A stretch of DNA of 64,000 nucleotides, taken from Methanothrix sp. Its GTDB lineage: Archaea > Halobacteriota > Methanosarcinia > Methanotrichales > Methanotrichaceae. The stretch lies in NCBI GenBank assembly GCA_963682135.1, contig OY821645.1:1440001-1504000 (forward strand), written 5' to 3'. A program made the translations under genes and the position numbers. Below, in pieces: positions 32,788 to 51,672 of this stretch; position 1 is the first letter of the stretch; each line of letters begins with the position of its first letter. The notes under the pieces were generated by a model. That model saw only the letters and a program-made list of their open reading frames with translations. It made no database searches and was not told where the DNA came from.

Positions 32788-32788
32788 T

Positions 32789-36174: not shown

Positions 36175-36218
36175 TTTGGAAAAAGCCTTTTAATAGTTAG
36201 CGATTATAATTCGATGTC

Positions 36219-36715: not shown

Positions 36716-36887
36716 CTCCTAATTTCCCCTCTTTAGTCGGCCTCCATACACCTTATTATATTAGATACTGATAAAACTTTCGTAACTTTGATATTAGGTA
36801 TTTTTGGTTCTGAATCAATATAGATATATAAATTATACAGTATGTTTACTGCAATGCATGTGGCAGGTCTGCTGCACTGAAAAAGAG

Positions 36888-37343
36888 TTAATTCGACACA
36901 CGGGATGAAATGGCTTTATCCAGTTCGTCTGCATCCATTCGTAGAAGTTCATCTCCTTGGCTCTTAAGTCTTGCCAGATCCCTGCGTAAGGGTCCCAAAC
37001 GCAGGACTGCATCCGGTTCCCCTGTCGAGGAGACCATCTGCTGCAACCTCTCCAGCCTCAGCCTCATTGCATCCTGCCCATTTAGCAATTCCGACAGATC
37101 TCGCAGGGCCTTTACAACGTTTTTGCCGCGTGCCGTTAGCTCCAGGTAATTGATCCTTCCTTCTGGTCGCGACTTGATCAAACCCTGCGCTTCCAGCTCA
37201 CGAAAAATGCTACAGGTATGAGGAAAGGTAGAATCGATACGCTTAGCGACCAGCGCCGCATAAGCATGCTCGGTCTCGTCCACAGCAATTAATGCTGAAA
37301 CGGGCTTTTCCCGGAGGAAAAGCCGCTCTAGTGGTTTCTGCAT
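36888..37343 (-). CDS. MarR-like winged-helix protein
   Basis: LFLREKP, AKRIDSTFPH, LEAQGLI..GRI..LTARG. Confidence 0.8.
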   Translation of the reverse strand: MQKPLERLFLREKPVSALIAVDETEHAYAALVAKRIDSTFPHTCSIFRELEAQGLIKSRPEGRINYLELTARGKNVVKALRDLSELLNGQDAMRLRLERLQQMVSSTGEPDAVLRLGPLRRDLARLKSQGDELLRMDADELDKAISSRVSN

Positions 37344-37366
37344 TATTTCTCAGACTTTTTCAGTTC

Positions 37367-38323
37367 TCAGGCATCCGCTTGCATTTGGATCTGAGTAGGT
37401 GTTATGACAGGGGCAGAAAGGGCCAGCTTTGGCAAAGTTATGTCTGTAGGCTTGTCAAAGTCATAATACAGATCATCCGTCACTATGCTCACCGATATTT
37501 CTCCCAGTCGGATAGACTGATTGAACATCTTCATCTGGCTTGTACTGGGATCCAGTCCACCTATGATCTCCGGTGTCATGGAAAAGCTCATGGTGCTCAG
37601 GTATTTCACAGGCAGGTAAGATTTCTTGGAGATCCAAATCGTCTTTTCTATCTTGCCAGTCTCATTCAGCTCGGTTCTGTTGACCGAGGGCAAGTACATG
37701 GGATACTGGGTAACCTTGGCAGCAATGGCAAAAGCGGCATTTTGTAGACTGATGTTATCCCCGCTACCGGTTACAATCTTCAATTTGTAGGCGTCTTCGC
37801 CACTGATAGCCTCCGAGCCGAGATCCTCGGTCGTTGACAGATTAAACGTCGCGGCTATGGCCTTTACCTGATTATTTTTATCAGGGCCCCAAACTTCTTG
37901 CATGGACCTGGGGTCCGCAAGATGTGTCCAATTGCCGCTCTCATCATATACATAGGTTGAATTTCCGATCTGATATACATTGGCACTTGTGGTGCTGGTG
38001 TTTGCCGGCTGGCCGGTCATCTCCATCTGGTTCTGAGTCGAACCGGTGGCATGAGCCTCTAAGCTCGACAGGTTTACAACGGCAACAGTCTCAGCGTTTT
38101 CCGTAATTGTAGTTGACTTATCAGCAGTTGCATTGCTTCCTGAATCAAGCTTTAGCGTCTGAGTCATTGAACTCTTGATGCTGTAGCTGGTCAGGTTTTC
38201 GGCTGCTGCAACAGACAGTGTCTTAAGCTCAGTTGCACTCTTATCGGCAACACTTGGACCTTTCTCCGTGCAGCCGGAGAACGCCACGACAATTAACACA
38301 AGGACTAGTAATAATCTCTTCAT
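37367..38323 (-). CDS. Lipoprotein (LolA/LppX-like fold possible)
   Basis: MKRLLLVLVLIVVAFSGC lipobox; IWISKKSYLPVKY and YYDFDKPTDITLP. Confidence 0.8.
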   Translation of the reverse strand: MKRLLLVLVLIVVAFSGCTEKGPSVADKSATELKTLSVAAAENLTSYSIKSSMTQTLKLDSGSNATADKSTTITENAETVAVVNLSSLEAHATGSTQNQMEMTGQPANTSTTSANVYQIGNSTYVYDESGNWTHLADPRSMQEVWGPDKNNQVKAIAATFNLSTTEDLGSEAISGEDAYKLKIVTGSGDNISLQNAAFAIAAKVTQYPMYLPSVNRTELNETGKIEKTIWISKKSYLPVKYLSTMSFSMTPEIIGGLDPSTSQMKMFNQSIRLGEISVSIVTDDLYYDFDKPTDITLPKLALSAPVITPTQIQMQADA

Positions 38324-38348
38324 ATTTTTCAGCTCCAATCTCAATCAA

Positions 38349-39284
38349 TCACGTAATCACGCCTGAATCTTGCTTGGCGGGCAAAAACTTTTCGCCTGTA
38401 ATCATCTCGAAGAGTTTGATATAGATTCTGCTTGTCTCTTGCACCACTTCCAGTGGCAGCGTTGGGATGGGAGGCTCACTTTGGCCGGCGTCTCGGGCCA
38501 CATAAAGCTGGTCTTTGTAGCCAGTCCGGCGATAGTACTGGCGCACATACTCCTTGGACAGGTCCACGAACTCGCCCTGCTCATAGCGGGCCTTGTCCCA
38601 GAAGCGGTCCTCATCTGCGGTTCCGTAGACATCGATCACCATGATCTGTCTCTCATCGTCAAAGGCCAGCTCCTTTTTGCCATCCACGTGAATCAGACCA
38701 CGCGAGGCAACGTTTCTGCCGATGTCTTCGTCGATCTTGAGCACCAACTCTCTGGCATCCTCATATTCTTGAGGTGTCAGGCCTGAGATCTGCAGTGCTT
38801 CCTCTTTTTTCAGCAATCTGTCCGTCTTCTCCAGCTTTGTGGAGACCTCGATGAAAGGCTCGGGCAGAGCCTCGCCTGAGTAAATCTTGTGCCCGGAGGC
38901 AAAGCCCAGATCCTTAGCCAGGACCTTGCCTTCTTTTACGCGGTCGTAGAGAGAGCCGGCCACAAACCAGCGGCAGATCCACTCCAGAGGTATGAGGTAG
39001 TTCCTGGAATTTGCGGTGATCTGCTGCGGCTGGATTATGTCCACCTTCTTGCAGATCATGCCTGCCGGAGGCAGGTACTCGATAAAGTGGGTCTTGATGC
39101 CCATCTTCTCGGCTCTCTTGAACCAGTACATGCCCTCTTTGCTGAGGGTCTCACCCTTGAAGGGAATCAGACTGGGAATGATCTTATCAAAGACGGAGAT
39201 GTTGTCTGTAAAGCGGAATTCCAGCCGGTCGCCAAGGTCGTAGGCCTCTTTGACCTTGCCCTTCATCAAAAGCTTGCGCTGCAT
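38349..39284 (-). CDS. purC: SAICAR synthase
   Basis: GKVKEAY, DNISVFD, GLIHVDGKKE, TADEDRFW, SKEYVRQ. Confidence 0.95.
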   Translation of the reverse strand: MQRKLLMKGKVKEAYDLGDRLEFRFTDNISVFDKIIPSLIPFKGETLSKEGMYWFKRAEKMGIKTHFIEYLPPAGMICKKVDIIQPQQITANSRNYLIPLEWICRWFVAGSLYDRVKEGKVLAKDLGFASGHKIYSGEALPEPFIEVSTKLEKTDRLLKKEEALQISGLTPQEYEDARELVLKIDEDIGRNVASRGLIHVDGKKELAFDDERQIMVIDVYGTADEDRFWDKARYEQGEFVDLSKEYVRQYYRRTGYKDQLYVARDAGQSEPPIPTLPLEVVQETSRIYIKLFEMITGEKFLPAKQDSGVIT

Positions 39285-39411
39285 CGCAGCCTATCTGACA
39301 TGGAAAGATGATAACACTTTTGCTTTTAGTACCAGCCAACGAAAGTGTGCCCGCAATTCGGCCTGCAATGTGGGTGATAGGAAAAATGATGATAAAGAGG
39401 TTAAGAGAGGT

Positions 39412-41061
39412 CTATTCCTCTCCGCCCATACCGCCCATACCAGGTGGCATTCCACCCATGCCGCCGGGCATGCCGCCCGCTCCGCCTGACTTGGAAGCGA
39501 TGACATCATCGATACGCAGAATCATGACTGCAGCCTCGGTGGCACTGTTGATGGCCTGGGTCTTGACCCGCAGGGGTTCGACCACGCCAAGGGCTAGCAT
39601 ATCAACCGGCTCGCCGGTGTCCATATCCAGACCAGCGCTCTTAACGCCCTTCTCATGCTGGCTTCTCAGAGAGACCAGGGAATCGATCTGATCAAGGCCA
39701 GCGTTCTCGGCCAGGGTCTTGGGGATTACCTCCATAGAGTCCGCGAAGGCCTCGATGGACAGCTGCTCGCGACCGCCCACGGTTGCCGCGTACTCGCGCA
39801 GACGCAGCGCCAGCTCTACCTCAGGGGCACCGCCGCCTGGGACCAGCTGTTTGTCCTCCACGACTACGCCCACAACGCGCAGAGCATCTTCCATAGCCCG
39901 GTTGAGTTCATCGACCACGTGCTCGGTTCCGCCCCGCAGGATGATGGAGACTGACTTGGGGTTCTCGCACTCTTCTACGAAGGTCATCTTCTCGTCGCCG
40001 ATCTTTCTCTCCTCGACCTTGCCTGCTTTGCCCAGGTCGTTCTTGGTCAGATCGTGGATGCTGGTGACAACCCTTCCGCTCGTAGCGCGAGCGAGCTTCT
40101 CCATGTCGCTCTTCTTGACACGGCGTACGGTGTAGATGCCGGCCTTTGCCAGGAAGTGCTGGGCCAGGTCATCAATGCCCTTCTGGCAGAAGACGACGTT
40201 TGCGCCGGTGGCCATGATGTCATCCACCATGCCCTTGAGCATTGTCTCTTCCTGGTCCAGGAAAGCCTGCAGCTGATCGGGAGAGGTGATCTCGATCTTG
40301 GCATCGACTTCAGTCTTCTCGATCTCGATGGCAGCGTTGAGCAGTGCGATCCTGGCGCCGGTGACCTTCTTGGGCATATTGGGGTGCAGCCGGTCCTTGT
40401 CGATGACCATGCCGTGCACCAGCTGGGAATCGGTAATTCCGCCGCCTACTTTCTTCTCCACGGTGATGTTGTCGGTATCAACTGATCCGTCATCATCCAC
40501 CACGGCCCGGACGGCTTCAACGGCCAGATTGGCCAGCTCTTCTCGAGCTGTGCCGGAGCCCTTGCCGGTCATGGCAGTGACGGCGATCTTCTTTAGAAAC
40601 TCGGCATCTTTAACAGAGACATCCACGGCAATGGTCCTCAGAATTTCCAGTGACTTGTCTGCCGCAGCCCTGTAGCCGGCAGCGATAACCGTGGGATGGA
40701 TATCCTGATCCAGCAGAGCCTCGGCCTGCTTGAGCAGTTCACCGGCGAGAACCACAGCGGTGGTTGTTCCATCTCCCACCTCGGCATCCTGGGTCTTGGC
40801 GATCTCCACCATCATCTTGGCGGCGGGGTGTTCGATGTCCATCTCCTTGAGAATGGTGACACCATCGTTGGTTATTACTACGTCGCCTAGAGTATCGACC
40901 AGCATCTTGTCCATGCCCTTGGGACCGAGTGTAGTTCTGACGGCTCCTGCCACAGCCTTGGCGGCCATGATGTTCGACCTCTGTGCTTCCTTGCCAGCCG
41001 TTCTCTGGCTGCCTTCCTTAAGAATAAGCACTTGCGCTCCACCAAATTGTCCTGCTGCCAT
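39412..41061 (-). CDS. Thermosome (group II chaperonin) subunit
   Basis: [26 protein letters not shown]-terminal GGM repeats; GGAGGT RBS. Confidence 0.98.
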
Positions 41062-41275
41062 TTAATACCTCCAATAGCGATTTAGATCAAAGTGTGATAT
41101 CGGGTGTTTGAACGTCTATATGAAGGTGGCGAGTGGAGGTTCTGTTTTGTGGCGGCTGACGGGTGATATCAGTATCATGCGACGGTCACAAATGTCGCAC
41201 TTTTCGCTGATATTCCCTGCGAAAAAAAGTTCTCAGGGCAATTAGTCTTTCGGGCTCTTATCCGCTTCAGGGCTT

Positions 41276-41881
41276 TTATCCGTCCCTGGTATTCTGTTGA
41301 TATTTTGTGCCTAGTATGCCCTCAGAGCCTGGCGGTGTTACTATATAAAAATTAATAATCGTATTTGCATGTTCGTTTCCATCTTTAATATAAACTAACT
41401 TTACACTATACGCACCTGGCTTCCAGGTTAACTGCTTGCATTGAGCGGGACTGGCCGGGCCATTGGTAGATTTACAAATTTGATCAGGAAGCAAATCGAT
41501 AAAGTACTGGCAATCGCTCGAGGTATCATAAACCGAAGCGATGTGGACACCAGGACCATCGGCAGGAACGAAGAGCGTTTCAAGCTTAAAATTGCCACCA
41601 TCCAACAGGCAGATCGGGCTTCCTAATTGGGTAATACTAAGGGTGAAGCTCAATGGTTTGGAATTTTCGGCAAATGCGCCGTCGCCGGCAGGATCAATAT
41701 TATAGGGGTACATCACAATGTTTTCCCCTTGATGAGTTTGCTGTTCAGACTCGGTAAGAACTTCGCCAGGCATCGGCTGTCGGCTCACAACGCAACCTAT
41801 CCGTAATTGACATTATCTGGTATAGACCAACACCAGAAAAAGAAAGCACATGGCAATGGCACTTGCCGCAGCCAAAGTCAT
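41276..41881 (-). pseudogene. Secreted hypothetical protein, apparently interrupted by an in-frame TAA
   Basis: ATG 41881 gives MTLAAASAIAMCFLFLVLVYTR, then TAA (41813-41815), and the same frame continues into the 170-aa ORF 41276-41788. Confidence 0.5.
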
Positions 41882-41909
41882 GCCATCACGGGATTTTCGG
41901 GAAGGAAGT

Positions 41910-44900
41910 CTAATTGATCGCTATCGTATCCGCATAGACTACTCTTCGGCCATCATTTCCTGGAGCGTCACTGTCCTTTGGGAAGGCCTCATATTCTTTT
42001 ATCACAAGGCGCATCCGATTCCCTCGAAGCTGAACTTTTGAAACCTCCAGGTTCGCACTCCAGATAAAGTATTCCGGATCATAACCTGGTTCTCCTGGCT
42101 GCGGGCCCAATCGCGGGAAGATGGTTATTTCCTTCTTCTTCCAGCCCAGTGGCTCTTCACCGGCTTGATTGTCCAAATCATTTATTTCCGCAATCAATTC
42201 GATCTCCGTATGCTGAATTGCGCTATTTTCGCCTACTGGCTTATAGCCCTCCAGTTTTACGGTTATGATTGATATTAGGCTATTGCCAGGTTTTGGTTGG
42301 CGAGTGAATGTGAGTATCCTGGTTGGTACGATCTGAATGAACTCGGTCAAGACAACCGACGAGATCTTGGCATCGTCCTTCAATGACGTCGCGGGCGTAG
42401 GAACAGAATGGGACTGATAGCGTGCAAGAGCCAGACGGATGAATGGATAGTAAGCTTTTATCTTCCTCATATCCAGTTGTATATCTGCATACCAGCGGTC
42501 CTGCTCTTTTCCATATTTTACGTCAAATGCTGCTATATCCACTTTTGCGCTGGGAGATTCAATTAAATGGCAATCATAGTCGTATTCAGGAGCACTGGTC
42601 TTGCCATCCTTTTCCGGGACGAGGAAGTCGTTTGCCGTCAGAGAGTAATTGCTGCCACCGGAAGCCCAGACCGGGTCTTTGCCGAATAAAGTGACCAAAT
42701 GCCCTATCTTTAGCAGTTTTCCTGCGCTGTCCTCCATAATCTCTCCAGGCCTCAGCAGGACCACGGCGATCTGTTCGTCGGGACCGGAGGCGAACCAGGG
42801 CCTTTCCAGGTATATTCTGAGCCCACCACCCAGGCGAGTGCGTACAAAGCCATTGAGAATCTCCGATTGAGTCCAGGCGAATGTCGGGATTACATAGGCC
42901 ACCTTAGGAGCTGGCGGTCTGGTGGAGTTGGGAATATCTACTCTAACCGGTTTGCCGGTTATGGTGTGGTTATCGACCTCATATCTTAATTTTTTTTCTT
43001 TTTCTTCCGGTGCGTCTGATGTGTTCGGATTGGGCGGGAAATACTCTCTAAATCGTGTAGTTGCCCTCATGCTATAATAGACCCAGTGGTGGTTGGTGTC
43101 GCCAATCTGGTGGCATGCGGAAAGGTCGTATTTCAGATTAACCGAGCTGATGATTGTCTCATCTACAAACTGATTATGTTGACGCGTCTTAAGCTTGCCT
43201 TCAACATCAACCGGACTGCCATTCAGGGGATCATCCCATGGGTCCTCCCAATTGGCCATCAGTTCTATTTTGCCCGTGCTGGCTACATTCAGATCCATGC
43301 CGCTCTTGATAATGACCGACGTTTCATTTACTTGTTTACGGATGTTAATCAGCATGCTGAATCCAGGTGCTTGCAGCGGTTTGTCTACGGCATGCACTAG
43401 TGTCAATGTGCGGTACGGCGTGAGCATCCAGAGCAGGCCGAGCAGAGCATTCATATCATTGATGAAGGGGTTATCTGTTAGCTCCTTGAGCCACTTCCAG
43501 ACGCCGAGGTAACTCAGAATGGACGGATTGAGCAGACTGCTGCAACGAAGATCGAGGACCTGCGCCTTTTTCAGGAATATGGATAACTCTCGGCAGGATG
43601 CGTCCCATTGGATCATGCCCTGTCCAATTTCTTTGGCTTTCTTAAGGACCAATCTAAAAGGAGAATAATCGGGCCATGTTGGATTGACACCGTTTTTCTC
43701 TGAATATCGCACACGTGCGGTGAATATATCTCCGGTATTTTTCACCATATCAGGCGGCAGTTTGGCGGCAATTTCATTTAGATTTTCTGGCCAGTGCCAT
43801 TCGCCCGGACGGGGTATCTCGGATAGATTCTTGCCATACCAGAATACCGCCCCCAGAACTCCTGGATCGGGCAGGTAGGGCAGTTGTAGCTTCTGCTCTT
43901 CCTGTACATCTTTCAGGACTCCTTTCTCCTTTGAAGCCACTCTAAAAGCCGATTCAAAATCACCGGTCTTCAGCCACTTATCCAGTGCACCGCTTTTTTC
44001 CGCCATGTCGATTGACGTTTTTGGAGGTACTATATGGCGCTCAGAAGGACTATCAACGACCATAGGCGGCAATGAAGCCTCCTTCGCATCATCCTCGAAG
44101 TTGCGGGCAGCATCTGTATTGGTGTAGCTGCGAATGACCATGCGTTCCAGGGATTCTCCTTCAATAAACAAATAGCGCGGGACAATCACAGGTGGGCTTA
44201 AGGGCTCATACCTCTGGAAAATCAGCTCGTCAGAGGCATATCGAGATACCTGGGAGCCGTATTGAAGACCATTGCCAGCCAGGTCCACCGCCCTCGCTCG
44301 CAGGCGATACTTTCTGCCGAAGCGAAGGATTGGCAAGCTCTTCGGCGGGACGCTGTAGTGTGCCTCAAAGGGAAACGTAGGCACAGAGTCATTCTCTTCA
44401 TTGACATGCTTGGCGTTGGCATAATGATCCAGCCTTTCGCTGGCGGACTGCGCGGCAAGTCCCGGGAGCTTGACTACGAGGCTCCAGCCGTTCCACTGCA
44501 TGACCGCTTCATGAAGGCGCTCTTGGTCCGACTTCTTGCAGGTAGAGGTACTGCTTGTGCTTTTTATAAAACCCTCGTCAGTGTCGTTCAAATTCATGGT
44601 GGCGAGCCCGGCATTGGGAAAGATAATATTGCCTGCCCTTCGGCATAGAGAGCGCCACGAGGAGCCCGTGTCCAGTGAATCGAGAATATCGAGCCGGTAG
44701 CCTCTCAAAAGGTCGTCCCAGTAAAACTCGATATCGCACTCGCCTCCTTCACTGCTGGAGCTGGATACGGCGATCTTTTCCAGAGCCGCGTTCAATTCTT
44801 TGTTGCGTCTCAGGCGGTCCATCAGGCCTTCTTTCCGGCCTGCCCGGACCAGTGATATTCCTGCAGAACGAAGGGCTGGCAATCCGATCTCATTGGGTTG

Positions 44901-45911
44901 ATTTACATAATCATGAACAGAATTTTCGTATATGTTGGCGATGGTGCAAGAGAGGTTCTTGAGTTTGATGGCGGCTCCATCCATATCGAATTGCACTAGG
45001 TCGTACTTGGTTCGATAACTGGTCTGAATATCGCTTACATGCTGAAGATCGAGGTATCCTTCAATTATCTCGCTGCCGGATTTGCTCTGCGCCCGGAAAT
45101 CTTTGTCCGTTAAGATATAATTGGTGTAGGGTGTGACATTGCGCGGCTGGGTGTATGTGCCCGGCGTATTCCACTTATTGCCCATGCCTGACCACTTCAG
45201 TCCTATCCTCAGTTTGCCGTTCTTGCTCGTGATCGAATTCATTGGAAGCTCAAAGTCGATGATCAGGCCGAGCTTTCGCAATGCAGCAGGATGGTCGCCC
45301 AGAGCTGAGATCAGTTGATGGAAATCAAATATGGGTGGATCAATAGGTTTGTCCTTTAATTCGCAGTCAAAAAAGTCCTGAACCTCGGGAAATGATGGGA
45401 AATAATCCCCGTCCATTTCCCTCAATATCATTAGAGGATCGTCGTATACGAATTTAAAAGAATCTTCTTTGCGCCTAATGGGGATTAGTGAGATGGGAGA
45501 CGCGTTTGCTGTTAATTTATAAATATCCCTTATTGACCCGATAGCGCTGCGCACCGGATATGTTTTAAACTCCCGACTGCTGTAGTCCTTAAATTGGTAA
45601 GGCTCAACCAGCGTCTCTCTGGGAAATAGACCTTTCCAATATTTGCTGGCATCCTTATCTATAAAGGGCTTGACAATAAAGGATTTGCCGCTGCCCGCGG
45701 GAAAATTGATAGAGAACACGAGGTCCCTCAATACGCCCGGCCAGTCCAGGAAACAGGGAAAATCTTTTAGCGTCGTCTCATTTTTCCAATATAGGCGCGG
45801 AGACACAAAAACAGATAGGTATGCTAGATTGTCCTTTGTCCCATTGGGCAATGCCGACCACATGATCACCGGACCGTTGATTAGCGATTTAATTGGAATT
45901 TTATTTGGCAT
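41910..45911 (-). CDS. Giant hypothetical protein (about 1333 aa), beta-rich, Ig-like motif
   Basis: Uninterrupted 4-kb ORF. ATG 45911 lies one base after the upstream stop. No signal peptide; contains YRLRARAVDLAGN. Confidence 0.9.
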   Translation of the reverse strand: MPNKIPIKSLINGPVIMWSALPNGTKDNLAYLSVFVSPRLYWKNETTLKDFPCFLDWPGVLRDLVFSINFPAGSGKSFIVKPFIDKDASKYWKGLFPRETLVEPYQFKDYSSREFKTYPVRSAIGSIRDIYKLTANASPISLIPIRRKEDSFKFVYDDPLMILREMDGDYFPSFPEVQDFFDCELKDKPIDPPIFDFHQLISALGDHPAALRKLGLIIDFELPMNSITSKNGKLRIGLKWSGMGNKWNTPGTYTQPRNVTPYTNYILTDKDFRAQSKSGSEIIEGYLDLQHVSDIQTSYRTKYDLVQFDMDGAAIKLKNLSCTIANIYENSVHDYVNQPNEIGLPALRSAGISLVRAGRKEGLMDRLRRNKELNAALEKIAVSSSSSEGGECDIEFYWDDLLRGYRLDILDSLDTGSSWRSLCRRAGNIIFPNAGLATMNLNDTDEGFIKSTSSTSTCKKSDQERLHEAVMQWNGWSLVVKLPGLAAQSASERLDHYANAKHVNEENDSVPTFPFEAHYSVPPKSLPILRFGRKYRLRARAVDLAGNGLQYGSQVSRYASDELIFQRYEPLSPPVIVPRYLFIEGESLERMVIRSYTNTDAARNFEDDAKEASLPPMVVDSPSERHIVPPKTSIDMAEKSGALDKWLKTGDFESAFRVASKEKGVLKDVQEEQKLQLPYLPDPGVLGAVFWYGKNLSEIPRPGEWHWPENLNEIAAKLPPDMVKNTGDIFTARVRYSEKNGVNPTWPDYSPFRLVLKKAKEIGQGMIQWDASCRELSIFLKKAQVLDLRCSSLLNPSILSYLGVWKWLKELTDNPFINDMNALLGLLWMLTPYRTLTLVHAVDKPLQAPGFSMLINIRKQVNETSVIIKSGMDLNVASTGKIELMANWEDPWDDPLNGSPVDVEGKLKTRQHNQFVDETIISSVNLKYDLSACHQIGDTNHHWVYYSMRATTRFREYFPPNPNTSDAPEEKEKKLRYEVDNHTITGKPVRVDIPNSTRPPAPKVAYVIPTFAWTQSEILNGFVRTRLGGGLRIYLERPWFASGPDEQIAVVLLRPGEIMEDSAGKLLKIGHLVTLFGKDPVWASGGSNYSLTANDFLVPEKDGKTSAPEYDYDCHLIESPSAKVDIAAFDVKYGKEQDRWYADIQLDMRKIKAYYPFIRLALARYQSHSVPTPATSLKDDAKISSVVLTEFIQIVPTRILTFTRQPKPGNSLISIITVKLEGYKPVGENSAIQHTEIELIAEINDLDNQAGEEPLGWKKKEITIFPRLGPQPGEPGYDPEYFIWSANLEVSKVQLRGNRMRLVIKEYEAFPKDSDAPGNDGRRVVYADTIAIN

Positions 45912-45912
45912 A

Positions 45913-48900
45913 TTACCATCCCACAAAAGCTAAACAGTATTCCTTCCAGGGCTCTACCAGATTTGCATTCTTAATCGGTTTTATAATGATCGAAACCGGC
46001 CTGTATGGCTTCAAAACCAGTCTCGTCAAAGCAATGAAGACCGATTTGTCTGAGGGCTCTCCAGATATCGAATCAAAGAAGAAAGCATATCCTGCTTTTA
46101 TCGGATCAAGGAATAACAGGCGATGCTTCTGATCTTCGAGGATAAGCTGGCCGTTAGGTGCATATATCTGGTAGGGTGCCATCACATCCTCGAAGGTCGG
46201 ATCTCCCGATGAACCGGCAAACTTGCGCTCGCATGAGATCTCCACAGAGGTGCTGAAGAATAGAATATCTACTTCGACGGTTATGCTCGCCCGGCCCACA
46301 GCCTTGCCATTTTCATAACCAAGTGTCATATAAAGTTCGATGGAGGCGCTGATGAGGCCCAGGACATCCACCTCGCCACCCATGCGAAGGTATCCATATA
46401 AATTGGTAGGGGCAGTGCTGAGATATTTGATATATATGCCGCCCATGACATAGATTCCACCGCTAGCGACTCCGAAGTTTACGGAGACTGTAGCCCCGAA
46501 CTCCAAAGAAAGCTCCAGCACCACTAGCTGCTTGGTTGTCATCTCCAGAGCCAGAAATCCTCCCCCTCCAAAGATTCCAACGGAAAGAGTGAAAGGCGAA
46601 TGCCTTTGGGCGAAGTTGAAACGCACAATTGCCGAAATATCGTGGAAAGGCAGTTCGAGTCCAGCAGCAAAGCTGATATTTTGCAGGCTGAAGATGCCGA
46701 TGGCAATGGTTGGAAGGGAAAGGCTGTAGCCGCAAGAAATTCCACTTCCAGTTACTTCCAAATAGGGCGGATCGCTGAAGCCATTTCCCGGAATATATCT
46801 GGAAAGTTCCTGCAAATAATCCAGGGGAGAGGCGAAAACAACATCAACGTCTGCAATGACATCCGGTTTGCGGCCGGTGTTCTTCACAAAACTGAGGCTC
46901 TTGAAGTTCAGGCTTATCAATTTGAAATCCAGTATAAAACTGGAGATCGTTGCTTTCATGGTCGTTTGGGATGAATCCTGACTACCTCTCGGAATCTTGG
47001 CCTCGATCAGCAGGTCCAGATTTGTGTTAAGAGCTGGATTCCTGGGATCATTAGGGTCATTGATGGTTTTGAATATGGAGTCTGTTGATCGCAGCGGTAT
47101 ATTGTTCCAGGAGATGGTATGCACCAGATTATCCCCACTCTGGGTTATCATCTTGGGGAATCCGTCAAGATCGCTTTCGCTTAGCAGACTCTTCAGGTCG
47201 AATTGGCCCAGGAGCCTGGCTGCCATGCCTTCAAATATCGATGGAGAGAACTTGCCGCTATCGAGTGCGCTAAGATCGCCTGCCGCCGGGCCGATCTCCC
47301 GGGACAGTCCCTTTATCTCCATATTCGGGGTAAAGAGTCCGCCCGAGCGAGATGAAGGAAACCACAGAATAATTTCTGATGATTGATAGAGGTCGTTTGC
47401 CCCCTGCCAGTCGACATATATGATCTCGGCATAAACCTGTCCAGGACCGCTTTTATCCTGCAGGTATGGCAGATGATAGCCGATAGTTGTGTTCTCAGTA
47501 TTACCGGTGAAGTGCTCCAGCTCGGGGATGAAGACATCGGCGCTGAGCAGAGCCGGGAAGAAAACAGGCTTTCCCATGTAAGCAAGCAGATCCATCTTGG
47601 GACGGTCATCTATGGGCATGGTAAATGCAGGAGGCATCAGCGCACCAAAGCGAATTTTGTGCGTTTCATAGCTGGTTCCTCCTTTGCCCTCCAGGGGAGT
47701 GGCATAAGTAAGCATCTGCCCAACGAAATCACAGGTGCGGCGCGTTCTCCATCGATTTGCCTTATCACTGCTGGATCCGTCCGCAGAGAGGTTGAACTTA
47801 TCAATATATGGCCCCAAAACGGCGGATCTATTTGTCTCCTGGCCTACGAAGAGCAGTGGCACATCGAACTCGATCTCGTGGCCTCCCAGGTCAATGGCCA
47901 GAATGTGGAAGTTGTAGTCCTGGCCTTCAACCATCGGCCAGAATAGCGATTGCCCATCGTCGCTCAGGTCCGAGTTGGCAGGAAGATCCAGATCAGGTGT
48001 GACCAGGTTTTGTATGCGAATCGATTTGAACGGAAAGAAATTTCGAACTATTATTTTTTCATCGCTTTGATTTGTTGGGTGTTTGACCGTCAGATCGCCG
48101 ACCTTGGTCTGATAATATGGGAAGGGAAGAATATCATTATCAGGGTAATTCTTTTGCGGCTCGCGAATAACGATAAACATGCGCTGGCGCAGGTATGCCG
48201 CTTTTCCGCTGCCGTCCTTTTCCAGCTCTCGCGCCGTGACTTTGACCAAGGCGGCTCGATGGCCGAAGGGAAACAGGAACCCCTCGTAGACTATGCGGCA
48301 GTAATGATCGCGGCCCATAGTGGCGTGATGGCACCATTCGGAAACGGAGAGAGCTTGTCCCCTGCCCATGCGGGACAGCATTCTTACATCCCAGCTTCCT
48401 CGCAGGTCCAGCCAGGCACCAAGGGCGGAGAGCATCAAGCGGTTTGCATCTATAGGTTTAGTGATTGGAGCAAGGTTGGTATTGGAACTCAATTGGACCA
48501 GATTAAACCTGTCTGCAGCATCCAGTGACATGCGGAATGGTTTCTCTTGGTGAGCAGGGCCGCTATTGGCTTCAAAGTTCGATCCGGAAAGATAATCTTT
48601 GTTTATCGCATCTGTGGACCAGCAGGCCCTGATCTTCGCCAGGTTGTCCCGGACAATGCCATTCTCATCTTTGGCAGACAGTCGGGTGTGCCATAGCTCT
48701 GTTCGGTCCGATGGGGAAGCCACGGGAATCGAGGCATGGTCCCAGCAGCTATTCTCGACCGGCGAGATCAGCAGGTGAAAGGGTGCTTCGATAAAGGATA
48801 CATATTGGCTTGTCAGCCATGGATGCTGAACTCCCTGAGGAGGGATGCTCAAATCCATTTCCTGGATGGCTTTCAGCAGGCTTTCCAGGGTAAATACGAT

Positions 48901-49545
48901 TGAATGATCGGGATTTTTCTCCAGGTAACTATTGGCGAGGAATACCAGATAGCTCGGGCCGGAGAGAAGAGCCTTTGCCGGCGTATGAGGTGCTTCTTCG
49001 GTGGGAGAGATATTAAACCACGAATCAGATTCTCCCGTGATTATGCATAGAGGTATGTAGGTTGGATTTGGGTTATTAGGGTCCAGCTTGGACAGTTCCC
49101 ATCTGTTGGAATTAATCTTGGAGACGCGACATTTTTGCGGCAGATAGATGCCCAGCTGGTCCGCCACCATCTTTGGGAAATCGCCCAGATCGACTTCGTT
49201 TTGTCCAGCGCTGTCCAGTACATTCTTGATTCCCCACGCCCAAATCCGGAAATTGAGTTTTCCGGAGGACTTGAAGAATGCCTCTTCGCCGATATGCTGA
49301 GGTGGAAACTTTATCTTGATGGCGCACCTCTTGCCGGGATCGCTGATCACCAGCTTTTGAGGGCTGCTTCCTGTCAAAGCAAAATTTTCAAAATATATAT
49401 CCAAAATCAGCATGTCTTTGGGACGCACGATTGAAAAGGGAATCCCTGGATCGATTACATCAGCTTTAATTGGTGCAAAATTATAATCGGATTGAATATG
49501 ATCCGGTCTATTTATATCTGCAGCAAAGGGCAATTTATCAGACAT
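45913..49545 (-). CDS. Giant hypothetical protein (1210 aa) with Gly-rich amphipathic beta C-terminus
   Basis: Uninterrupted 3.6-kb ORF with a GAGGT RBS; no signal peptide. Confidence 0.9.
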   Translation of the reverse strand: MSDKLPFAADINRPDHIQSDYNFAPIKADVIDPGIPFSIVRPKDMLILDIYFENFALTGSSPQKLVISDPGKRCAIKIKFPPQHIGEEAFFKSSGKLNFRIWAWGIKNVLDSAGQNEVDLGDFPKMVADQLGIYLPQKCRVSKINSNRWELSKLDPNNPNPTYIPLCIITGESDSWFNISPTEEAPHTPAKALLSGPSYLVFLANSYLEKNPDHSIVFTLESLLKAIQEMDLSIPPQGVQHPWLTSQYVSFIEAPFHLLISPVENSCWDHASIPVASPSDRTELWHTRLSAKDENGIVRDNLAKIRACWSTDAINKDYLSGSNFEANSGPAHQEKPFRMSLDAADRFNLVQLSSNTNLAPITKPIDANRLMLSALGAWLDLRGSWDVRMLSRMGRGQALSVSEWCHHATMGRDHYCRIVYEGFLFPFGHRAALVKVTARELEKDGSGKAAYLRQRMFIVIREPQKNYPDNDILPFPYYQTKVGDLTVKHPTNQSDEKIIVRNFFPFKSIRIQNLVTPDLDLPANSDLSDDGQSLFWPMVEGQDYNFHILAIDLGGHEIEFDVPLLFVGQETNRSAVLGPYIDKFNLSADGSSSDKANRWRTRRTCDFVGQMLTYATPLEGKGGTSYETHKIRFGALMPPAFTMPIDDRPKMDLLAYMGKPVFFPALLSADVFIPELEHFTGNTENTTIGYHLPYLQDKSGPGQVYAEIIYVDWQGANDLYQSSEIILWFPSSRSGGLFTPNMEIKGLSREIGPAAGDLSALDSGKFSPSIFEGMAARLLGQFDLKSLLSESDLDGFPKMITQSGDNLVHTISWNNIPLRSTDSIFKTINDPNDPRNPALNTNLDLLIEAKIPRGSQDSSQTTMKATISSFILDFKLISLNFKSLSFVKNTGRKPDVIADVDVVFASPLDYLQELSRYIPGNGFSDPPYLEVTGSGISCGYSLSLPTIAIGIFSLQNISFAAGLELPFHDISAIVRFNFAQRHSPFTLSVGIFGGGGFLALEMTTKQLVVLELSLEFGATVSVNFGVASGGIYVMGGIYIKYLSTAPTNLYGYLRMGGEVDVLGLISASIELYMTLGYENGKAVGRASITVEVDILFFSTSVEISCERKFAGSSGDPTFEDVMAPYQIYAPNGQLILEDQKHRLLFLDPIKAGYAFFFDSISGEPSDKSVFIALTRLVLKPYRPVSIIIKPIKNANLVEPWKEYCLAFVGW

Positions 49546-49633
49546 ATATTACCTCTCTTTCAATTACCTCTCCCCAAGTGGTAGAGAGAAAACTATCAGC
49601 CTGCCGATATATTACTTCAATTCCGTCATTTAC

Positions 49634-49648
49634 TATTTAAAACTTTTG
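49634..49648 (-). promoter_or_regulatory. Candidate BRE/TATA promoter of the giant-protein operon
   Basis: The minus strand reads CAAAAGT-TTTAAATA about 90 nt upstream of ATG 49545. Confidence 0.5.
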
Positions 49649-49823
49649 AATAAATTATCAAAATTATTTTTTAAAAATTTTTTGATTTACCCCGCAAACG
49701 AGCGAAATCTCGACGAATAAGAAAGATTAATAATGTTATTTTAGAATAATTTTGCGGTGACGATTATATCGTGATACTACCATTTTCCCATTCCGACCTC
49801 TCTCCAAAATGATGTTGCGGTTC

Positions 49824-49980
49824 AGCCGACTTGAAGCTGCGGTCACAGATGAAGCGGATCTTGTAGCGCTGCAATTCCAGGTGGTTGCTCCGGGCTACGG
49901 CGAGCACCTCCACGGGAGCGACCATGAGGCTGTTGGTCTCGGGGGCCAGGGAGACGGCGTGGTGTAGTTCGATTTCGATG
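49824..49980 (-). pseudogene. Fragment of a conserved methanogen hypothetical protein
   Basis: EIELHHAVSLAPETNSLMVAPVEVL....NHLELQRYKIRFIC resembles, from memory, the N-terminus of a Methanomicrobia family. No ATG and truncated. Confidence 0.35.
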
Positions 49981-50214
49981 ATAGGATATGGGTGGATATG
50001 GGTGGACCCGGGGGATATGAGGGCGATGCAAGGGGGCGGGGCGAAAGTGAAGGGCGCAATCCGCAAAATGAAGGCATAGTGATGGATACAGGGCCTTAAT
50101 AACAATTTACAGAAAATTAGTTAAGCTGCCATATGTTTTAAAATTAATAATTTTTGTCCAATCAGCCCCAGCTATCAGTCAAATCTATAAACCAAGAGCG
50201 ACCTGTATCCTCTC

Positions 50215-50307
50215 ATGGACATAATGACTATCGCCTTTTACGCCATCCTTTTCATCATCGCTTTCATGATCGCCCGCATCATCATGAAAATCATGCGCGG
50301 CTACTAG
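50215..50307 (+). CDS. 30-aa single-TM small protein
   Basis: MDIMTIAFYAILFIIAFMIARIIMKIMRGY with strong C-ending codon bias. TCTATAAA at 50184-50191 is spaced for a leaderless mRNA. Confidence 0.6.
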   Translation: MDIMTIAFYAILFIIAFMIARIIMKIMRGY

Positions 50308-50376
50308 GCCGGGCCAGCGGACTTTGGCAGACGGGCAAGGCCCGGAAAGGGCTAAGCGACAGACTTAATATTTGCG

Positions 50377-51672
50377 ATGCCTAAACCTGCCGTCATGTTT
50401 CCCCAGGTCTTAGCCACAGTCGGCGGCTCAGGAACTCGTTTATACCCGCTCACCTTAGATCAGCCCAAGCCGCTGGTGGAGCTATGCGACACAGCCATAA
50501 TCGCCAACTTATTCCGGGTTTTGGCCAGCCAGGGCTGCAGAAGGTTCATCCTGGGCAGCAAGGGTGCCAGCAACACCCTCAACCTCAGCAATTACTTCAA
50601 AGCAGGCGAGGGCTTTTTCAAACGGCTGGGGATCACCGACCACCAGGACTTTTCTTACCAGCCTCTCTACGACGACAAGGGAAGCGCCGATTCACTGCGC
50701 TATTGCATGAACTATTTTGATATCAACGACGACCTGTTGGTGGTCTCGGGCGACAACCTGATCGATATAGACCTCGCAAGCTTCGTCGAGTTTCACAGAA
50801 AGCACAAGCCTTTGCTCACGGTGGCCCTGAAAGAGCTGGGACCAGAGGAGAACATCTCCCAGTACGGCGTGGCCCGCTTGGATGATGATATGCGCATCTT
50901 GGGATTCGTAGAAAAGCCGAAAACTGGAAGCGAGCCCAGCCGCATGATCAACACCGCCTTTTACCTCTTCTCGCCCCAGATTCGCGAGGTTCTGGCCGAG
51001 ATGGGAGACAAAGGCCGCGACATCGGCGGCGACCTGATACCCTACTTAACCGAGAACGGCTATCCCGTTTACGGATATCCCATTACAGGCTATTGGATAG
51101 ATATCGGCACTCCGGAGCGGCTGCATCAGGCATCCATGGACTGCCTCTCGGGGGCTGTCCGCCATTTCGACCGCAAATACCACTATAAGCCCAATCAGTG
51201 GATTCATCCCAGCACACTAGCCAAGATCGAGCCAGCTCTCGCCTCGGGCGATATACTGCTTTTGGGCAACGTCTCCATCGGCAGGAACTGCCATATCGAA
51301 AAGGGCGTTACCATCGAGAACTCTCACATCGGTCATACCAGCCTCATTGAACGCAATGTAGAGATCAAAGAGAGCATGATCATGAGCTTCGCTCATATCC
51401 AGCACATGGTCAATATCCGGCGCACCATCGTCGGCAGGCACACTACAATAGAGGAGCATAGCGCTATCGGAGGGGAAAATGGTGCAGGGGAGAGACTCAT
51501 TGCAGTCATCGGCGAGAATGCCATTCTTCCGCCCGAATCGGTGGTACCCGCCGGGGTAAGGGTTGCACCGCTCAAACACAGCCACAGCATTCTGGCCACA
51601 GGCAGATTCGCGGAGCTGGGAATTGATGAAAGAAATATATACTTTGCAGAAAAAAGTTCGATGAAACGCTAG
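50377..51672 (+). CDS. NDP-sugar pyrophosphorylase (GlgC/GDP-Man PPase-like) with hexapeptide tail
   Basis: GGSGTRLYPLT..PKPLV, VSGD, FVEKP, YWIDIGTP, left-handed beta-helix. Alternative start at 50395. Confidence 0.9.
   Translation: MPKPAVMFPQVLATVGGSGTRLYPLTLDQPKPLVELCDTAIIANLFRVLASQGCRRFILGSKGASNTLNLSNYFKAGEGFFKRLGITDHQDFSYQPLYDDKGSADSLRYCMNYFDINDDLLVVSGDNLIDIDLASFVEFHRKHKPLLTVALKELGPEENISQYGVARLDDDMRILGFVEKPKTGSEPSRMINTAFYLFSPQIREVLAEMGDKGRDIGGDLIPYLTENGYPVYGYPITGYWIDIGTPERLHQASMDCLSGAVRHFDRKYHYKPNQWIHPSTLAKIEPALASGDILLLGNVSIGRNCHIEKGVTIENSHIGHTSLIERNVEIKESMIMSFAHIQHMVNIRRTIVGRHTTIEEHSAIGGENGAGERLIAVIGENAILPPESVVPAGVRVAPLKHSHSILATGRFAELGIDERNIYFAEKSSMKR

What the first reader, a model, noticed from the sequence alone, without database searches (positions are those of the whole stretch)
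41276..49650. Operon of two giant uncharacterised beta-rich proteins: candidate undescribed two-protein machine
Seen: two intact ORFs of 1210 aa and about 1333 aa that are tightly coupled (TAA-t-ATG at 45915-45909). They have their own BRE/TATA and RBS and are followed by a third small gene. The block sits between the thermosome and housekeeping genes, with an AT-rich spacer and a gene fragment at its edge. Neither protein has a signal peptide, TM helix or recognisable catalytic motif. Both carry Trp/Pro/Arg-rich blocks that look conserved (TELWHTRL, LSALGAWL, W.HHATMGRDHY.RIVYEGFLFPFGHRAALVKVT; WSALPNG..LSVFVSPRL, WNGWSLVV, GLRIYLERPWFASG, YYPFIRLALARYQ). From memory, similar gene pairs occur as hypothetical proteins in diverse bacteria, which I could not verify. 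Inference: a horizontally acquired heteromeric complex of unknown function, such as a membrane-inserting or toxin-delivery assembly, a lipid-bridge, or a defence system.
Basis: partly seen in the sequence, partly recalled or inferred. Interest (0 to 1): 0.88.

Follow-up and report, generated by a model that had tools for sequence, protein, structure and literature searches.

The report
Widespread paired giant beta-protein cassette
An archaeal genome carries a horizontally acquired pair of giant, unannotated genes that recurs as a strict pair in hundreds of bacterial and archaeal species; the two proteins are predicted to bind each other, and one ends in a porin-like beta-barrel although it has no export signal.

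Summary
Gene A (45913-49545, minus strand, 1210 aa) and gene B (41910-45911, minus strand, 1333 aa from the ATG) are intact and joined by TAA-t-ATG.

- **No known family.** Neither protein matches Pfam, NCBIfam, PADLOC, PHROGs or any PDB sequence.
- **Large families.** A has 4376 representatives at 50% identity with E<=1e-3.
- **Strict pairing.** B follows A on the same strand in 79 of 80 loci from many bacterial phyla and a few archaea, and in 16 plasmid records. No third gene is conserved.
- **Third gene is separate.** The small gene C is a native, lineage-specific gene, not part of the cassette.
- **Likely acquired.** B was found in 0 of 40 relatives, and the cassette sits at a synteny break.
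- **Folds.** A ends in a roughly 190-residue amphipathic beta-meander that resembles outer-membrane barrels (Z 13). It has no signal peptide, and its hosts include monoderms and archaea. The C-terminal half of B is a string of FN3-like domains.
- **Predicted binding.** A complex model supports binding (score 0.67, best control 0.00) through the most conserved residues of both proteins.

The function is not established. My best guess (about 0.4) is a membrane-engaging binary complex. Defence context is not supported.

The parts
45913..49545 (-). Gene A, 1210 aa. A giant beta-rich protein of an unannotated family.
   Evidence: ORF. No family or PDB sequence match. 856 homologues in the word-index search and 4376 representatives with E<=1e-3. 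Model of residues 11-1210: pLDDT 76, pTM 0.66.
46207..47022 (-). C-terminal amphipathic beta-meander, a porin-like barrel domain of A (residues about 842-1113). It holds the FGGGGF and GVASGG motifs.
   Evidence: VIA-align: all 50 listed rows are transmembrane beta-barrels, on model residues 908-1103 (protein 918-1113). Examples: CymA Z 12.5-13.0, rmsd about 7 A, 185-190 residues; FhuA Z 11.8, rmsd 3.8 A, 181 residues. The strands alternate a hydrophobic face (about +3 KD) and a polar face. This is the most hydrophobic part of A homologues.
45916..45957 (-). Conserved C-terminal tail of A (residues 1197-1210, consensus PWxEYCxAFA). Predicted docking peptide for B.
   Evidence: W1200 is invariant; Y1203, A1206, F1207 and A1208 are >=90% conserved. 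pLDDT is low in the monomer model. This tail makes the lowest-error contacts with B residues 481-492 and 526-533 in the complex model.
45909..45915 (-). TAA-t-ATG junction between A and B.
   Evidence: Read directly. In related loci the nominal A-stop to B-start distance is -60 to +62 nt in 61 of 78 loci.
41910..45911 (-). Gene B, 1333 aa from the ATG (1338 aa from the upstream TTG at 45926). A giant protein conserved over its whole length.
   Evidence: ORF. No family or PDB sequence match. 1866 homologues. Model of residues 6-1205: pLDDT 84, pTM 0.75.
44193..45863 (-). N-terminal half of B (residues about 22-578). Predicted to hold A's tail and A's last barrel strands. No fold match obtained.
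   Evidence: Interface residues are listed. They include the invariant G480/W481, P488/G489 and L531/P532/L534. The fold searches barely tested this part.
42318..44201 (-). String of about three FN3/Ig-like beta-sandwich domains in B (residues about 576-1203).
   Evidence: Foldseek gave 103 PDB hits with E<=1e-3, all of the 50 listed being beta-sandwich proteins, mostly tandem Ig/FN3 arrays. VIA-align gave Z 8.2-8.3 to FN3 domains and to the DT57C straight fibre. These are generic matches.
49546..49790 (-). AT-rich upstream spacer with TATA-like strings and an RBS-like GAGAGG before the ATG of A.
   Evidence: Read. GC is 0.42 for 49500-49999. Not tested functionally.
41835..41846 (-). Oligo-T stretch (ctttctttttct) after the stop codon of B. 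A candidate archaeal terminator that separates B from gene C.
   Evidence: Read. Inference only.
41147..49810 (.). Stretch with no counterpart in four same-genus genomes, taken as the acquired block. It also contains the native-family gene C.
   Evidence: DNA search of window 31000-50400 against 4 relatives. Matches stop at 41146. They resume only as a multi-copy repeat at 49810-50056 and as the syntenic NTP-transferase upstream region from 50169.

Best explanation
**Shown or strongly supported.** A and B form a self-contained two-gene cassette that was acquired horizontally. It belongs to a large, unannotated prokaryotic family. Both proteins are made without export signals.

**Supported by a model.** The two proteins form a complex. 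A's conserved C-terminal tail and its last barrel strands dock into the N-terminal half of B.

**Inferred.** A's C-terminal domain is about 20 long amphipathic strands in a porin-like meander, with one strongly hydrophobic face. I take it to be the working end. In the resting complex it is kept soluble by B and by A's own N-terminal domains. When triggered it engages or inserts into a lipid membrane. B, with its FN3-like string, would serve as scaffold and as recognition or oligomerisation arm. The variable N-terminal extensions of A homologues would add specificity.

**Biological role.** I commit to a membrane-perforating conflict weapon that does not depend on envelope type. It would act on the producer's own cytoplasmic membrane from inside, or on foreign cells after release. 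This would explain why one cassette works in diderms, monoderms and archaea.
For: **Pairing.**
- B lies immediately downstream of A on the same strand in 79 of 80 loci.
- The nominal gaps are short: -60 to +62 nt in 61 of 78 loci.
- A lies adjacent to B in the 16 plasmid records that hold substantial matches to both proteins; a 17th B record has only a partial match, with a partial A match about 8 kb away.
- No other family recurs among the 129 immediate neighbours; the most frequent is Sulfatase, 4 of 129.

**Acquisition.**
- B was found in 0 of 40 relatives.
- The cassette sits at a synteny break.
- Phylum labels are intermixed in the tree, 23 label changes against a minimum of 12.

**Binding.**
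- Complex prediction on A 840-1210 with B 6-625 gave a median score of 0.67, and the best of 3 controls scored 0.00.
- That mark was reached by 58 of 80 solved complexes and by 2 of 110 mismatched pairs.
- The runs agree in >=49% of contacts, and partner pLDDT is >=72.
- The contacts fall on invariant residues of both families.
- No solved relative exists, so the result is not recalled from a known structure.

**Barrel domain.**
- All 50 rows of the wide structural search are transmembrane beta-barrels, with Z up to 12.5-13.0.
- The strand faces alternate about +3 and about -2 KD.
- Hydrophobic 19-mers in A homologues are commonest near the GGGG motif of this domain: 23 of the 55 segments lie from 100 residues before it to 100 after it.

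**No export signal.** An N-terminal hydrophobic stretch occurs in 2 of 120 A homologues and 0 of 120 B homologues.

**Hosts of every envelope type.** They include Bacillus and Streptomyces plasmids, proteobacteria and archaeal MAGs.
Against: - **No functional evidence.** There are no functional data at all.
- **Barrel geometry unchecked.** I could not inspect the model's coordinates. Whether the sheet closes into a barrel, and which way the hydrophobic face points, is unknown. An amphipathic sheet could equally pack on a protein core or bind lipid without forming a pore.
- **No conflict context.** PADLOC gave no hit for A, B or C. Only 2 of 129 immediate neighbours hit defence models, both of them kinases.
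- **No accessory genes.** No immunity, lysis or secretion gene is conserved nearby.
- **Conservation is atypical.** Both families keep 30-45% identity across phyla with dozens of invariant residues. This is atypical of arms-race sensors.
- **Limits of the complex model.** Only parts of both proteins were modelled together, and one of the three runs scored 0.39.
- **STAND and SIR2 neighbours are weak evidence.** The STAND loci were picked by size, and the SIR2 neighbour is a single case.
Confidence: 0.4

Rival explanations
1. Lipid-binding or lipid-handling complex with no conflict role. A's amphipathic sheet lines or wraps a hydrophobic cargo, such as lipid, a hydrophobic polymer or a storage-body surface, in the manner of the amphipathic beta-belts of large lipid-transfer proteins. 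B acts as scaffold.
For: - The sheet has one strongly hydrophobic face.
- Foldseek listed MTP, ApoB100 and LptD among its weak hits.
- Long A homologues carry a helical insert whose profile weakly matches apolipoprotein A-IV and E, among other coiled coils.
- A distant giant relative is annotated 'apolipoprotein A1/A4/E domain-containing protein'.
- There is no defence context.
Against: - The lipid-protein hits have low probability (0.06-0.14) and TM about 0.05.
- The 50 top VIA rows are all pore-type barrels, not lipid-transfer folds.
- The window's own A lacks the helical insert.
- No lipid-metabolism gene recurs nearby.
- A patchy, plasmid-borne, multi-copy distribution is unusual for lipid housekeeping.
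Confidence: 0.2
2. A purely structural, non-membrane assembly, such as an intracellular or released cage, fibre or adhesin-like particle. The barrel-like domain is just a soluble beta-fold or an oligomerisation module, and B's FN3 string is a spacer or a binding arm.
For: - Both proteins are very strongly conserved and motif-rich, as in structural machines.
- B carries an FN3 string like phage fibres, S-layer proteins and adhesins.
- Some A homologues have accessory Ig-like N-terminal domains: TTR-52 in 2 of 30 and SoxZ in 1 of 30.
- No catalytic family was detected.
Against: - There is no signal peptide for a surface role.
- The hydrophobicity of the barrel strands exceeds what a simple soluble domain needs.
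- No assembly, chaperone or secretion partners are conserved.
Confidence: 0.2
3. Anti-phage abortive-infection system in the strict sense. B senses a phage component, and A then perforates the host membrane.
For: - The distribution is patchy, the cassette is self-contained, and it occurs on plasmids and in several copies in some genomes.
- STAND NTPases, one with a TIR domain, lie upstream in 4 of the 7 large upstream ORFs examined, which came from 5 loci; these were chosen by size.
- SIR2 lies next to a distant giant relative.
Against: - PADLOC gave no hit.
- Only 2 of 129 immediate neighbours match defence models.
- No phage record holds a relative.
- High conservation argues against an arms-race sensor.
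Confidence: 0.12
4. Remnant of a phage-tail or tailocin module (central fibre or host-specificity protein) that is no longer part of a virus.
For: - B's FN3 string ties with the straight fibre of phage DT57C (Z 8.2) and with T5 pb4.
- Weak BFVD hits for A include tail fibres and host-specificity protein J.
Against: - PHROGs gave 0 hits.
- tblastn of B against 50,697 phage records gave no match.
- BFVD gave 0 hits with E<=1e-3.
- No phage gene family appears among the 25 most frequent Pfam families that one search lists for the 129 neighbours (122 families matched in all); the few phage-named families in the 861 ORFs were not looked for separately.
- The FN3 matches are generic.
Confidence: 0.05

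Closest known systems
Monomeric outer-membrane beta-barrel porins (OmpG, CymA) and other OMP barrels (FhuA, FhaC, usher PapC)
   Same: About 190 residues of A (918-1113) superpose on these barrels. CymA gives Z 12.5-13.0, rmsd about 7 A. FhuA gives Z 11.8, rmsd 3.8 A. PapC gives Z 10.2, rmsd 2.6 A over 161 residues. A has long antiparallel meander strands with alternating hydrophobic and polar faces.
   Different: - No signal peptide.
- The domain sits at the end of a 1210-aa cytoplasmically made protein.
- Hosts include archaea and monoderms, which lack an outer membrane.
- No OMP Pfam family matches.
- The sequence is highly conserved, which OMP barrels usually are not.
- Barrel closure was not verified.
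ABC (Tc) toxin complexes and Rhs/teneurin YD shells
   Same: These are giant multi-subunit beta-rich proteins made without signal peptides. They spread by horizontal transfer and are encoded by adjacent genes. This part is established knowledge that I recall. Teneurin, Rhs and YenB appear in the Foldseek list.
   Different: Those Foldseek hits have probability <=0.07 and TM about 0.05. No RHS, YD or Tc Pfam family is detected. The subunit number and architecture differ.
Phage T5-like central or straight fibre (pb4, DT57C) and other FN3 strings
   Same: The C-terminal half of B is a string of FN3-like sandwiches. It matches 8hre at Z 8.2 over 284 residues and 7zn2_g at Z 7.4.
   Different: These matches tie with eukaryotic FN3 arrays and are therefore generic. 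There is no phage sequence match or phage context.
Large lipid-transfer proteins (ApoB100, MTP) with amphipathic beta-sheets
   Same: An amphipathic beta-sheet with one hydrophobic face. Weak Foldseek rows for 6i7s_H and 9e9r. Apolipoprotein-like helical inserts occur in long homologues.
   Different: Probabilities are 0.06-0.14. None of these proteins appears among the 50 top VIA rows. There is no sequence relation.
Two-gene giant pair on Rhizobium ruizarguesonis plasmid pRlX3 (2489-aa 'apolipoprotein A1/A4/E domain-containing protein' plus a 2569-aa hypothetical protein)
   Same: The C-terminus of the first protein matches the A profile over the barrel and tail (HMM positions 849-1261, domain E 1.5e-23). 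It is followed directly by a second giant gene.
   Different: The rest of that protein consists of long helical repeats. Its partner is not detectably related to B. It is itself uncharacterised.

Membership tests
Outer-membrane beta-barrel proteins (porin/OMP superfamily) | Antiparallel meander beta-barrel fold | tested here: met
   All 50 VIA-wide rows are TM barrels, Z up to 12.5. In the second look, 241 of 982 chains reach Z>=8, top Z 13.0, and all 50 listed rows are outer-membrane-type barrels. Closure of the barrel in the model could not be inspected.
Outer-membrane beta-barrel proteins (porin/OMP superfamily) | N-terminal Sec signal peptide | tested here: not met
   There is no hydrophobic N-terminus in A. 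Only 2 of 120 A homologues have an N-terminal hydrophobic 10-mer. This is a heuristic test, not SignalP.
Outer-membrane beta-barrel proteins (porin/OMP superfamily) | Host has an outer membrane with BAM-type insertion | tested here: not met
   The window is archaeal (thermosome, AglB). Homologous pairs occur on Bacillus and Streptomyces plasmids.
Outer-membrane beta-barrel proteins (porin/OMP superfamily) | Match to an OMP sequence family | tested here: not met
   Pfam and NCBIfam gave 0 families for A at E<=1. None of the three Pfam families that matched any of the 30 A homologues is an OMP family.
Known anti-phage defence systems (PADLOC-DB 2.0) | Protein matches a defence-system model | tested here: not met
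   0 families for A, B and C at E<=1.
Known anti-phage defence systems (PADLOC-DB 2.0) | Residence in defence islands (neighbours are defence genes) | tested here: not met
   2 of 129 immediate neighbours hit defence models, both Ser/Thr kinases matching PD-T4-6. Only the +-1 neighbours were scanned.
Tc/ABC toxins and Rhs/YD-repeat shells | RHS/YD repeats or TcA/TcB/TcC domains | tested here: not met
   No such Pfam family was detected. Foldseek probability <=0.07.
Phage tail fibre / central fibre proteins | Sequence relatives in phages, or a phage gene context | tested here: not met
   PHROGs gave 0 hits. tblastn of B against 50,697 phage records gave none. No phage family appears among the 25 most frequent Pfam families listed for the 129 neighbours.
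Phage tail fibre / central fibre proteins | String of FN3/Ig-like domains | tested here: met
   This is a generic feature shared with many non-phage proteins.
Type V secretion (two-partner or inverse autotransporter: barrel plus Ig-like passenger) | Signal peptides on both parts, POTRA or periplasmic domains, diderm host | tested here: not met
   No signal peptides. Monoderm and archaeal hosts. POTRA was not specifically tested, and no Pfam hit was found.
DUF6603 (PF20248), a lead from the protein atlas (score 0.78) | Profile similarity to a DUF6603 protein | tested here: not met
   hmmscan gave no hit. hhalign of A1 against a DUF6603 protein gave probability 0.2%, and A4 gave 0.3%.
Bridge-like lipid-transfer proteins (AsmA/TamB/VPS13) | Repeating beta-groove fold | tested here: inconclusive
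   These proteins are not among the rows listed. The lists are filled by one domain, and the other parts of A were barely tested.

The most novel reading that the evidence does not exclude
A and B define a new class of two-component machine that does not depend on envelope type. Its effector is a porin-type beta-barrel made in the cytoplasm without a signal peptide and delivered into a membrane with the help of its FN3-rich partner. This would be the first OMP-like barrel family native to monoderm bacteria and archaea as well as diderms. It would also be a previously unrecognised, widespread membrane-perforating system, with more than 4000 sequence clusters.
Probability: 0.25. Interest if true: 0.9.

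Novelty: categorically new. Interest (0 to 1): 0.74.

Why it matters
Two protein families of more than 1200 residues each have no entry in Pfam, NCBIfam, PADLOC, PHROGs or the PDB. They are large (4376 clusters at 50% identity for A), conserved across more than a dozen phyla and both prokaryotic domains, and always encoded as a pair.

A conserved, mobile, self-contained pair of this size almost certainly builds a machine. Its most recognisable module is a barrel of the outer-membrane type, found where such barrels are not expected: with no export signal and in hosts with no outer membrane.

The predicted A-tail to B-pocket interface gives a concrete, mutable handle for experiments. The cassette also occurs in tractable bacteria such as Cupriavidus metallidurans CH34 and Rhizobium plasmids.

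In the archaeal host it is a clear case of inter-domain gene acquisition.

Tried and rejected
- **DUF6603 lead** (atlas score 0.78). Rejected by hhalign. A first family search in 5 genomes was uninformative because the control rang nowhere.
- **PG_binding_1 lead for B** (atlas score 0.76). No such Pfam hit was found in 30 B homologues.
- **PDB profile hits of A1** (spike HR1, designed helical bundles, unc-13, apolipoproteins). These fall on a coiled-coil insert of long homologues that the window's A lacks, so I treat them as coiled-coil noise.
- **VirC2** (E 0.23) for B and **phrog_15435** (E 0.22) for C. Noise.
- **A-B fusions.** Apparent read-throughs (L009, L034, L075) were artefacts of HSPs or of open frames in GC-rich DNA. 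No true fusion was seen in the 80 loci.
- **Expression.** The look-up of sequencing runs listed no RNA holder.
- **Viral structure library.** 0 hits with E<=1e-3.
- **Sigma-70 promoter and terminator scan.** No excess over shuffles.
- **IQ-TREE run.** It timed out and was replaced by FastTree.
- **Literature.**
  - 'DUF6603' gave 0 papers.
  - Two multi-term searches gave 0 papers.
  - No paper was read.
  - I found no description of these families in these searches. That is weak evidence of absence from print, and paper supplements were not available.
- **Fold coverage.** I make no claim that these parts have new folds.


Full report
**1. What is in the sequence**

The minus strand holds three ORFs:
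- A, 45913-49545, 1210 aa.
- B, 41910-45926, 1338 aa from a TTG. The ATG at 45911 gives 1333 aa.
- C, 41276-41788, 170 aa.

An AT-rich spacer with TATA-like strings and a GAGAGG-type RBS lies upstream of A. An oligo-T run follows B's stop.

The flanking genes are archaeal housekeeping genes. Thermosome and SAICAR synthetase lie on one side. An NDP-sugar-type nucleotidyltransferase, UDG and AglB lie on the other. No tRNA gene and no Rfam family was found in the window.

**2. No known family**

A, B and C match nothing credible in any sequence library:
- Pfam, NCBIfam and PADLOC at E<=1.
- PHROGs.
- PDB sequences, as single sequences and as profiles. The only hits were coiled-coil noise on an insert that the window's A lacks.

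Scans of 30 homologues of each protein added little. For A there were occasional accessory domains: TTR-52 in 2 of 30, Baculo_PEP_C in 2 of 30 and SoxZ in 1 of 30. For B there was nothing meaningful.

The atlas lead to DUF6603 was tested and rejected.

**3. The families are large, and the pair is obligate**

Family size:
- The word-index search found 856 proteins for A among 7998 scored candidates.
- It found 1866 proteins for B among 8000 scored candidates. Where named, nearly all are 'hypothetical protein'; one is named a fibronectin type III domain-containing protein.
- An exhaustive phmmer search of 1.84 billion representatives found 4376 proteins with E<=1e-3, 3407 with E<=1e-10 and 2087 with E<=1e-30 for A.
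- In one-genome-per-species contigs, 577 of 600 pattern matches encode an A relative.
- The 80 loci kept come from Armatimonadota, Acidobacteriota, Chloroflexota, Actinomycetota, Bacillota, Pseudomonadota, Cyanobacteriota, Nitrospirota, Chlorobiota and other phyla. A few are from archaeal MAGs.

Pairing:
- B lies directly downstream of A on the same strand in 79 of 80 loci. The exception, L065, lies in a genome that has two further B copies elsewhere.
- The nominal intergenic distance is -60 to +62 nt in 61 of 78 loci.
- On plasmids, A and B lie adjacent in the 16 records that hold substantial matches to both. The hosts are Bacillus cereus-group megaplasmids, Rhizobium, the Cupriavidus metallidurans CH34 chromid, Streptomyces and Diaphorobacter.

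No third partner:
- Clustering of 861 neighbourhood ORFs shows no other family in more than 7 loci. Those that recur come from closely related genomes.
- Among the 129 immediate neighbours the most frequent Pfam family is Sulfatase, 4 of 129.
- Gene C was found next to the pair in 0 of 80 loci. It does have homologues in 8 of 24 same-genus genomes that lack A and B, plus a paralogue in the window's own genome. It is therefore a native gene, not part of the cassette.

**4. Acquisition**

- B was not found in 40 relatives, 24 of them in the same genus and several 98-99% complete.
- DNA of window 31000-41146 and of 50169 onward matches same-genus genomes. Window 41147-49810 does not.
- In those genomes the thermosome side and the nucleotidyltransferase side lie 116-220 kb apart, or on different contigs. 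The cassette therefore sits at a rearrangement point.
- In a FastTree of 56 B proteins, phylum labels are intermixed: 23 changes against a minimum of 12. The window's B is sister to unnamed metagenome proteins, at best 46% identical. It does not group with the other archaeal row.
- Composition is not alien. GC is 0.49-0.50 against 0.50 for the window. GC3 is 0.55, similar to AglB and DUF835. The transfer is therefore either not recent or came from a donor of similar composition.

**5. Structure**

*Protein A.* The model covers residues 11-1210, with pLDDT 76 and pTM 0.66. It is mostly beta.
- Its C-terminal third is a meander of about 20 long strands.
- Foldseek finds only weak hits, with barrel proteins at high probability but low TM.
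- In the Foldseek-independent search, all 50 listed rows are transmembrane beta-barrels aligned to model residues 908-1103:

| Match | Z | rmsd | Aligned residues |
|---|---|---|---|
| CymA | 12.5 | 7.1 A | 185 |
| OmpG | 11.7 | 6.7 A | 174 |
| PapC | 10.2 | 2.6 A | 161 |
| FyuA | 10.2 | 4.2 A | 184 |

- The second look gives CymA at Z 13.0 and 241 of 982 chains at Z>=8.
- Across 50 homologues the strands alternate a hydrophobic face (mean about +3 KD) and a polar face.
- The hydrophobic 19-mers of A homologues are commonest in this domain, around the invariant FGGGGF motif.
- The last roughly 100 residues are modelled with low confidence, although they end in a conserved PWxEYCxAFA motif.

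*Protein B.* The model covers residues 6-1205, with pLDDT 84 and pTM 0.75.
- Residues about 576-1203 form a string of roughly three FN3-like sandwiches. Foldseek gives 103 hits with E<=1e-3, the 50 listed all being beta-sandwich proteins, mostly Ig/FN3 arrays. VIA-align gives Z about 8. These are generic matches.
- The N-terminal half mixes a long beta-hairpin with helices and received no informative match.

*No export signals.* Neither protein has a TM helix or a signal peptide. The homologues lack them too: 2 of 120 for A and 0 of 120 for B.

**6. Do A and B bind?**

I modelled A 840-1210 together with B 6-625, using the family alignments.
- The verdict was that the model supports binding; it does not show it.
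- The median score was 0.67 (runs 0.72, 0.39 and 0.67), and the best of 3 controls scored 0.00.
- This mark was reached by 58 of 80 solved complexes and by 2 of 110 mismatched pairs. These counts hold only roughly, because my own alignments were used.
- The runs agree in >=49% of contacts, and partner pLDDT is >=72.
- The lowest-error contacts join A 1199-1207 (W1200, Y1203, A1206, F1207) to B 481-492 and 526-533. These are exactly the invariant WxGWS, PG and LPxLRFG columns.
- A's last barrel strands (1060-1104) touch B helices 314-382 and B's N-terminal hairpin.
- No relative has a solved structure, so the result is unlikely to be recalled from a known complex.
- The interface explains why A's tail is conserved yet disordered in the monomer model.

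**7. Interpretation**

*Firm.* This is a real, intact, horizontally acquired two-gene cassette of a large uncharacterised family. Its proteins are made without export signals.

*Probable.* The two proteins form a complex through A's C-terminus and B's N-terminal half.

*Inferred.* The amphipathic, porin-like domain of A is the functional end and engages a membrane or lipid. B holds it and provides a scaffold of FN3-like domains.

I commit, at about 0.4, to a membrane-perforating conflict device whose action does not depend on envelope type.

Four points weaken this reading:
- Barrel closure and the orientation of the hydrophobic face could not be checked.
- Defence context is absent: PADLOC gave no hit for the proteins, and only 2 of 129 neighbours hit defence models.
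- No immunity, lysis or secretion partner is conserved.
- The high conservation fits a structural machine better than a sensor.

The STAND NTPases seen upstream, in 4 of the 7 large ORFs examined, were selected by size. The SIR2 gene next to a distant giant relative is a single case. Neither carries much weight.

The rivals are a lipid-binding or lipid-handling complex, a non-membrane structural assembly, strict abortive-infection defence, and a phage-tail remnant. They are weighed in their own sections.

**8. Novelty**

No curated family, defence model, phage family or solved structure covers either protein. The only resemblances are at domain-fold level. My literature searches found nothing, but they were few and indirect, and paper supplements were closed.

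I rate the system as categorically new in kind, with the function still open.

Noticed in passing
window 41276-41788 (-): Gene C (170 aa) belongs to a small, genus-restricted family. It has homologues in 8 of 24 same-genus genomes and a paralogue in the window's own genome at G000:C1:2582414-2582752. Several relatives' copies carry in-frame stop codons. It has no Pfam family.
   Followed up: partly
window 49810-50056, overlapping ORF 49764-50105 (-): Short repeat next to the cassette. The own genome holds three copies in all: the window's own, plus two others 81% and 74% identical. Several copies occur in same-genus genomes. The overlapping 113-aa ORF and its counterpart in L103 have no Pfam family. 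It could mark a recombination or insertion hotspot.
   Followed up: partly
window about 41100 and about 50170: The two flanks of the cassette are not neighbours in relatives. They lie 116 kb apart in G005 and 222 kb apart in G022, and on different contigs in G015 and G024. This indicates a genome rearrangement at this point.
   Followed up: partly
L101 (Rhizobium ruizarguesonis plasmid pRlX3) 2434-17637: A distant, even larger pair. The first protein (2489 aa, 'apolipoprotein A1/A4/E domain-containing protein') has a C-terminus that matches the A barrel and tail profile (domain E 1.5e-23). It is followed by a 2569-aa hypothetical protein with no detectable likeness to B. A SIR2 family gene lies next to the pair.
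   Followed up: partly
L008 versus L009: Contigs labelled Methanothrix sp. MAG and Syntrophorhabdus sp. MAG are 99.6% identical over 7.2 kb, including the A-B pair. Either one is mis-binned or the transfer is very recent. The archaeal label of L008 is therefore uncertain.
   Followed up: yes
L019, L038, L068 and L069, upstream of the pair: Large STAND-type NTPase genes lie just upstream of A in these loci. Their architectures are TIR-AAA_16-TPR, BTAD-hydrolase-AAA_16-TPR, cyclase-AAA_16-TPR and nSTAND. The ORFs were chosen by size, so no frequency is implied.
   Followed up: partly
A homologues of 1650-1950 aa (for example P0016, P0018, P0021): Long forms of A carry a helical or coiled-coil insert before the barrel domain and N-terminal extensions of up to about 700 aa. 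Long forms of B (1650-1820 aa) sit on the same contigs as mid-length A forms, judged by matching contig lengths.
   Followed up: no
L091 (Bacillus wiedmannii plasmid pBwiPL1-1) 18411-28146: Next to the A-B pair, on the opposite strand, lies a run of four other hypothetical genes, three of them very large. Three encode proteins of about 450, 1114 and 1485 aa, and one is cut by the end of the locus. None matches the A or B profiles.
   Followed up: partly
L029 and L081; G158: Some genomes carry more than one cassette. Two loci come from one Symbiobacteriaceae MAG. G158 holds one lone A plus two further B copies, at least one of them with A upstream.
   Followed up: partly
window 32995-36174 (+): A 1059-aa protein with a C-terminal DUF835 domain (E 1e-50) and a long N-terminal part with no family match.
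   Followed up: no
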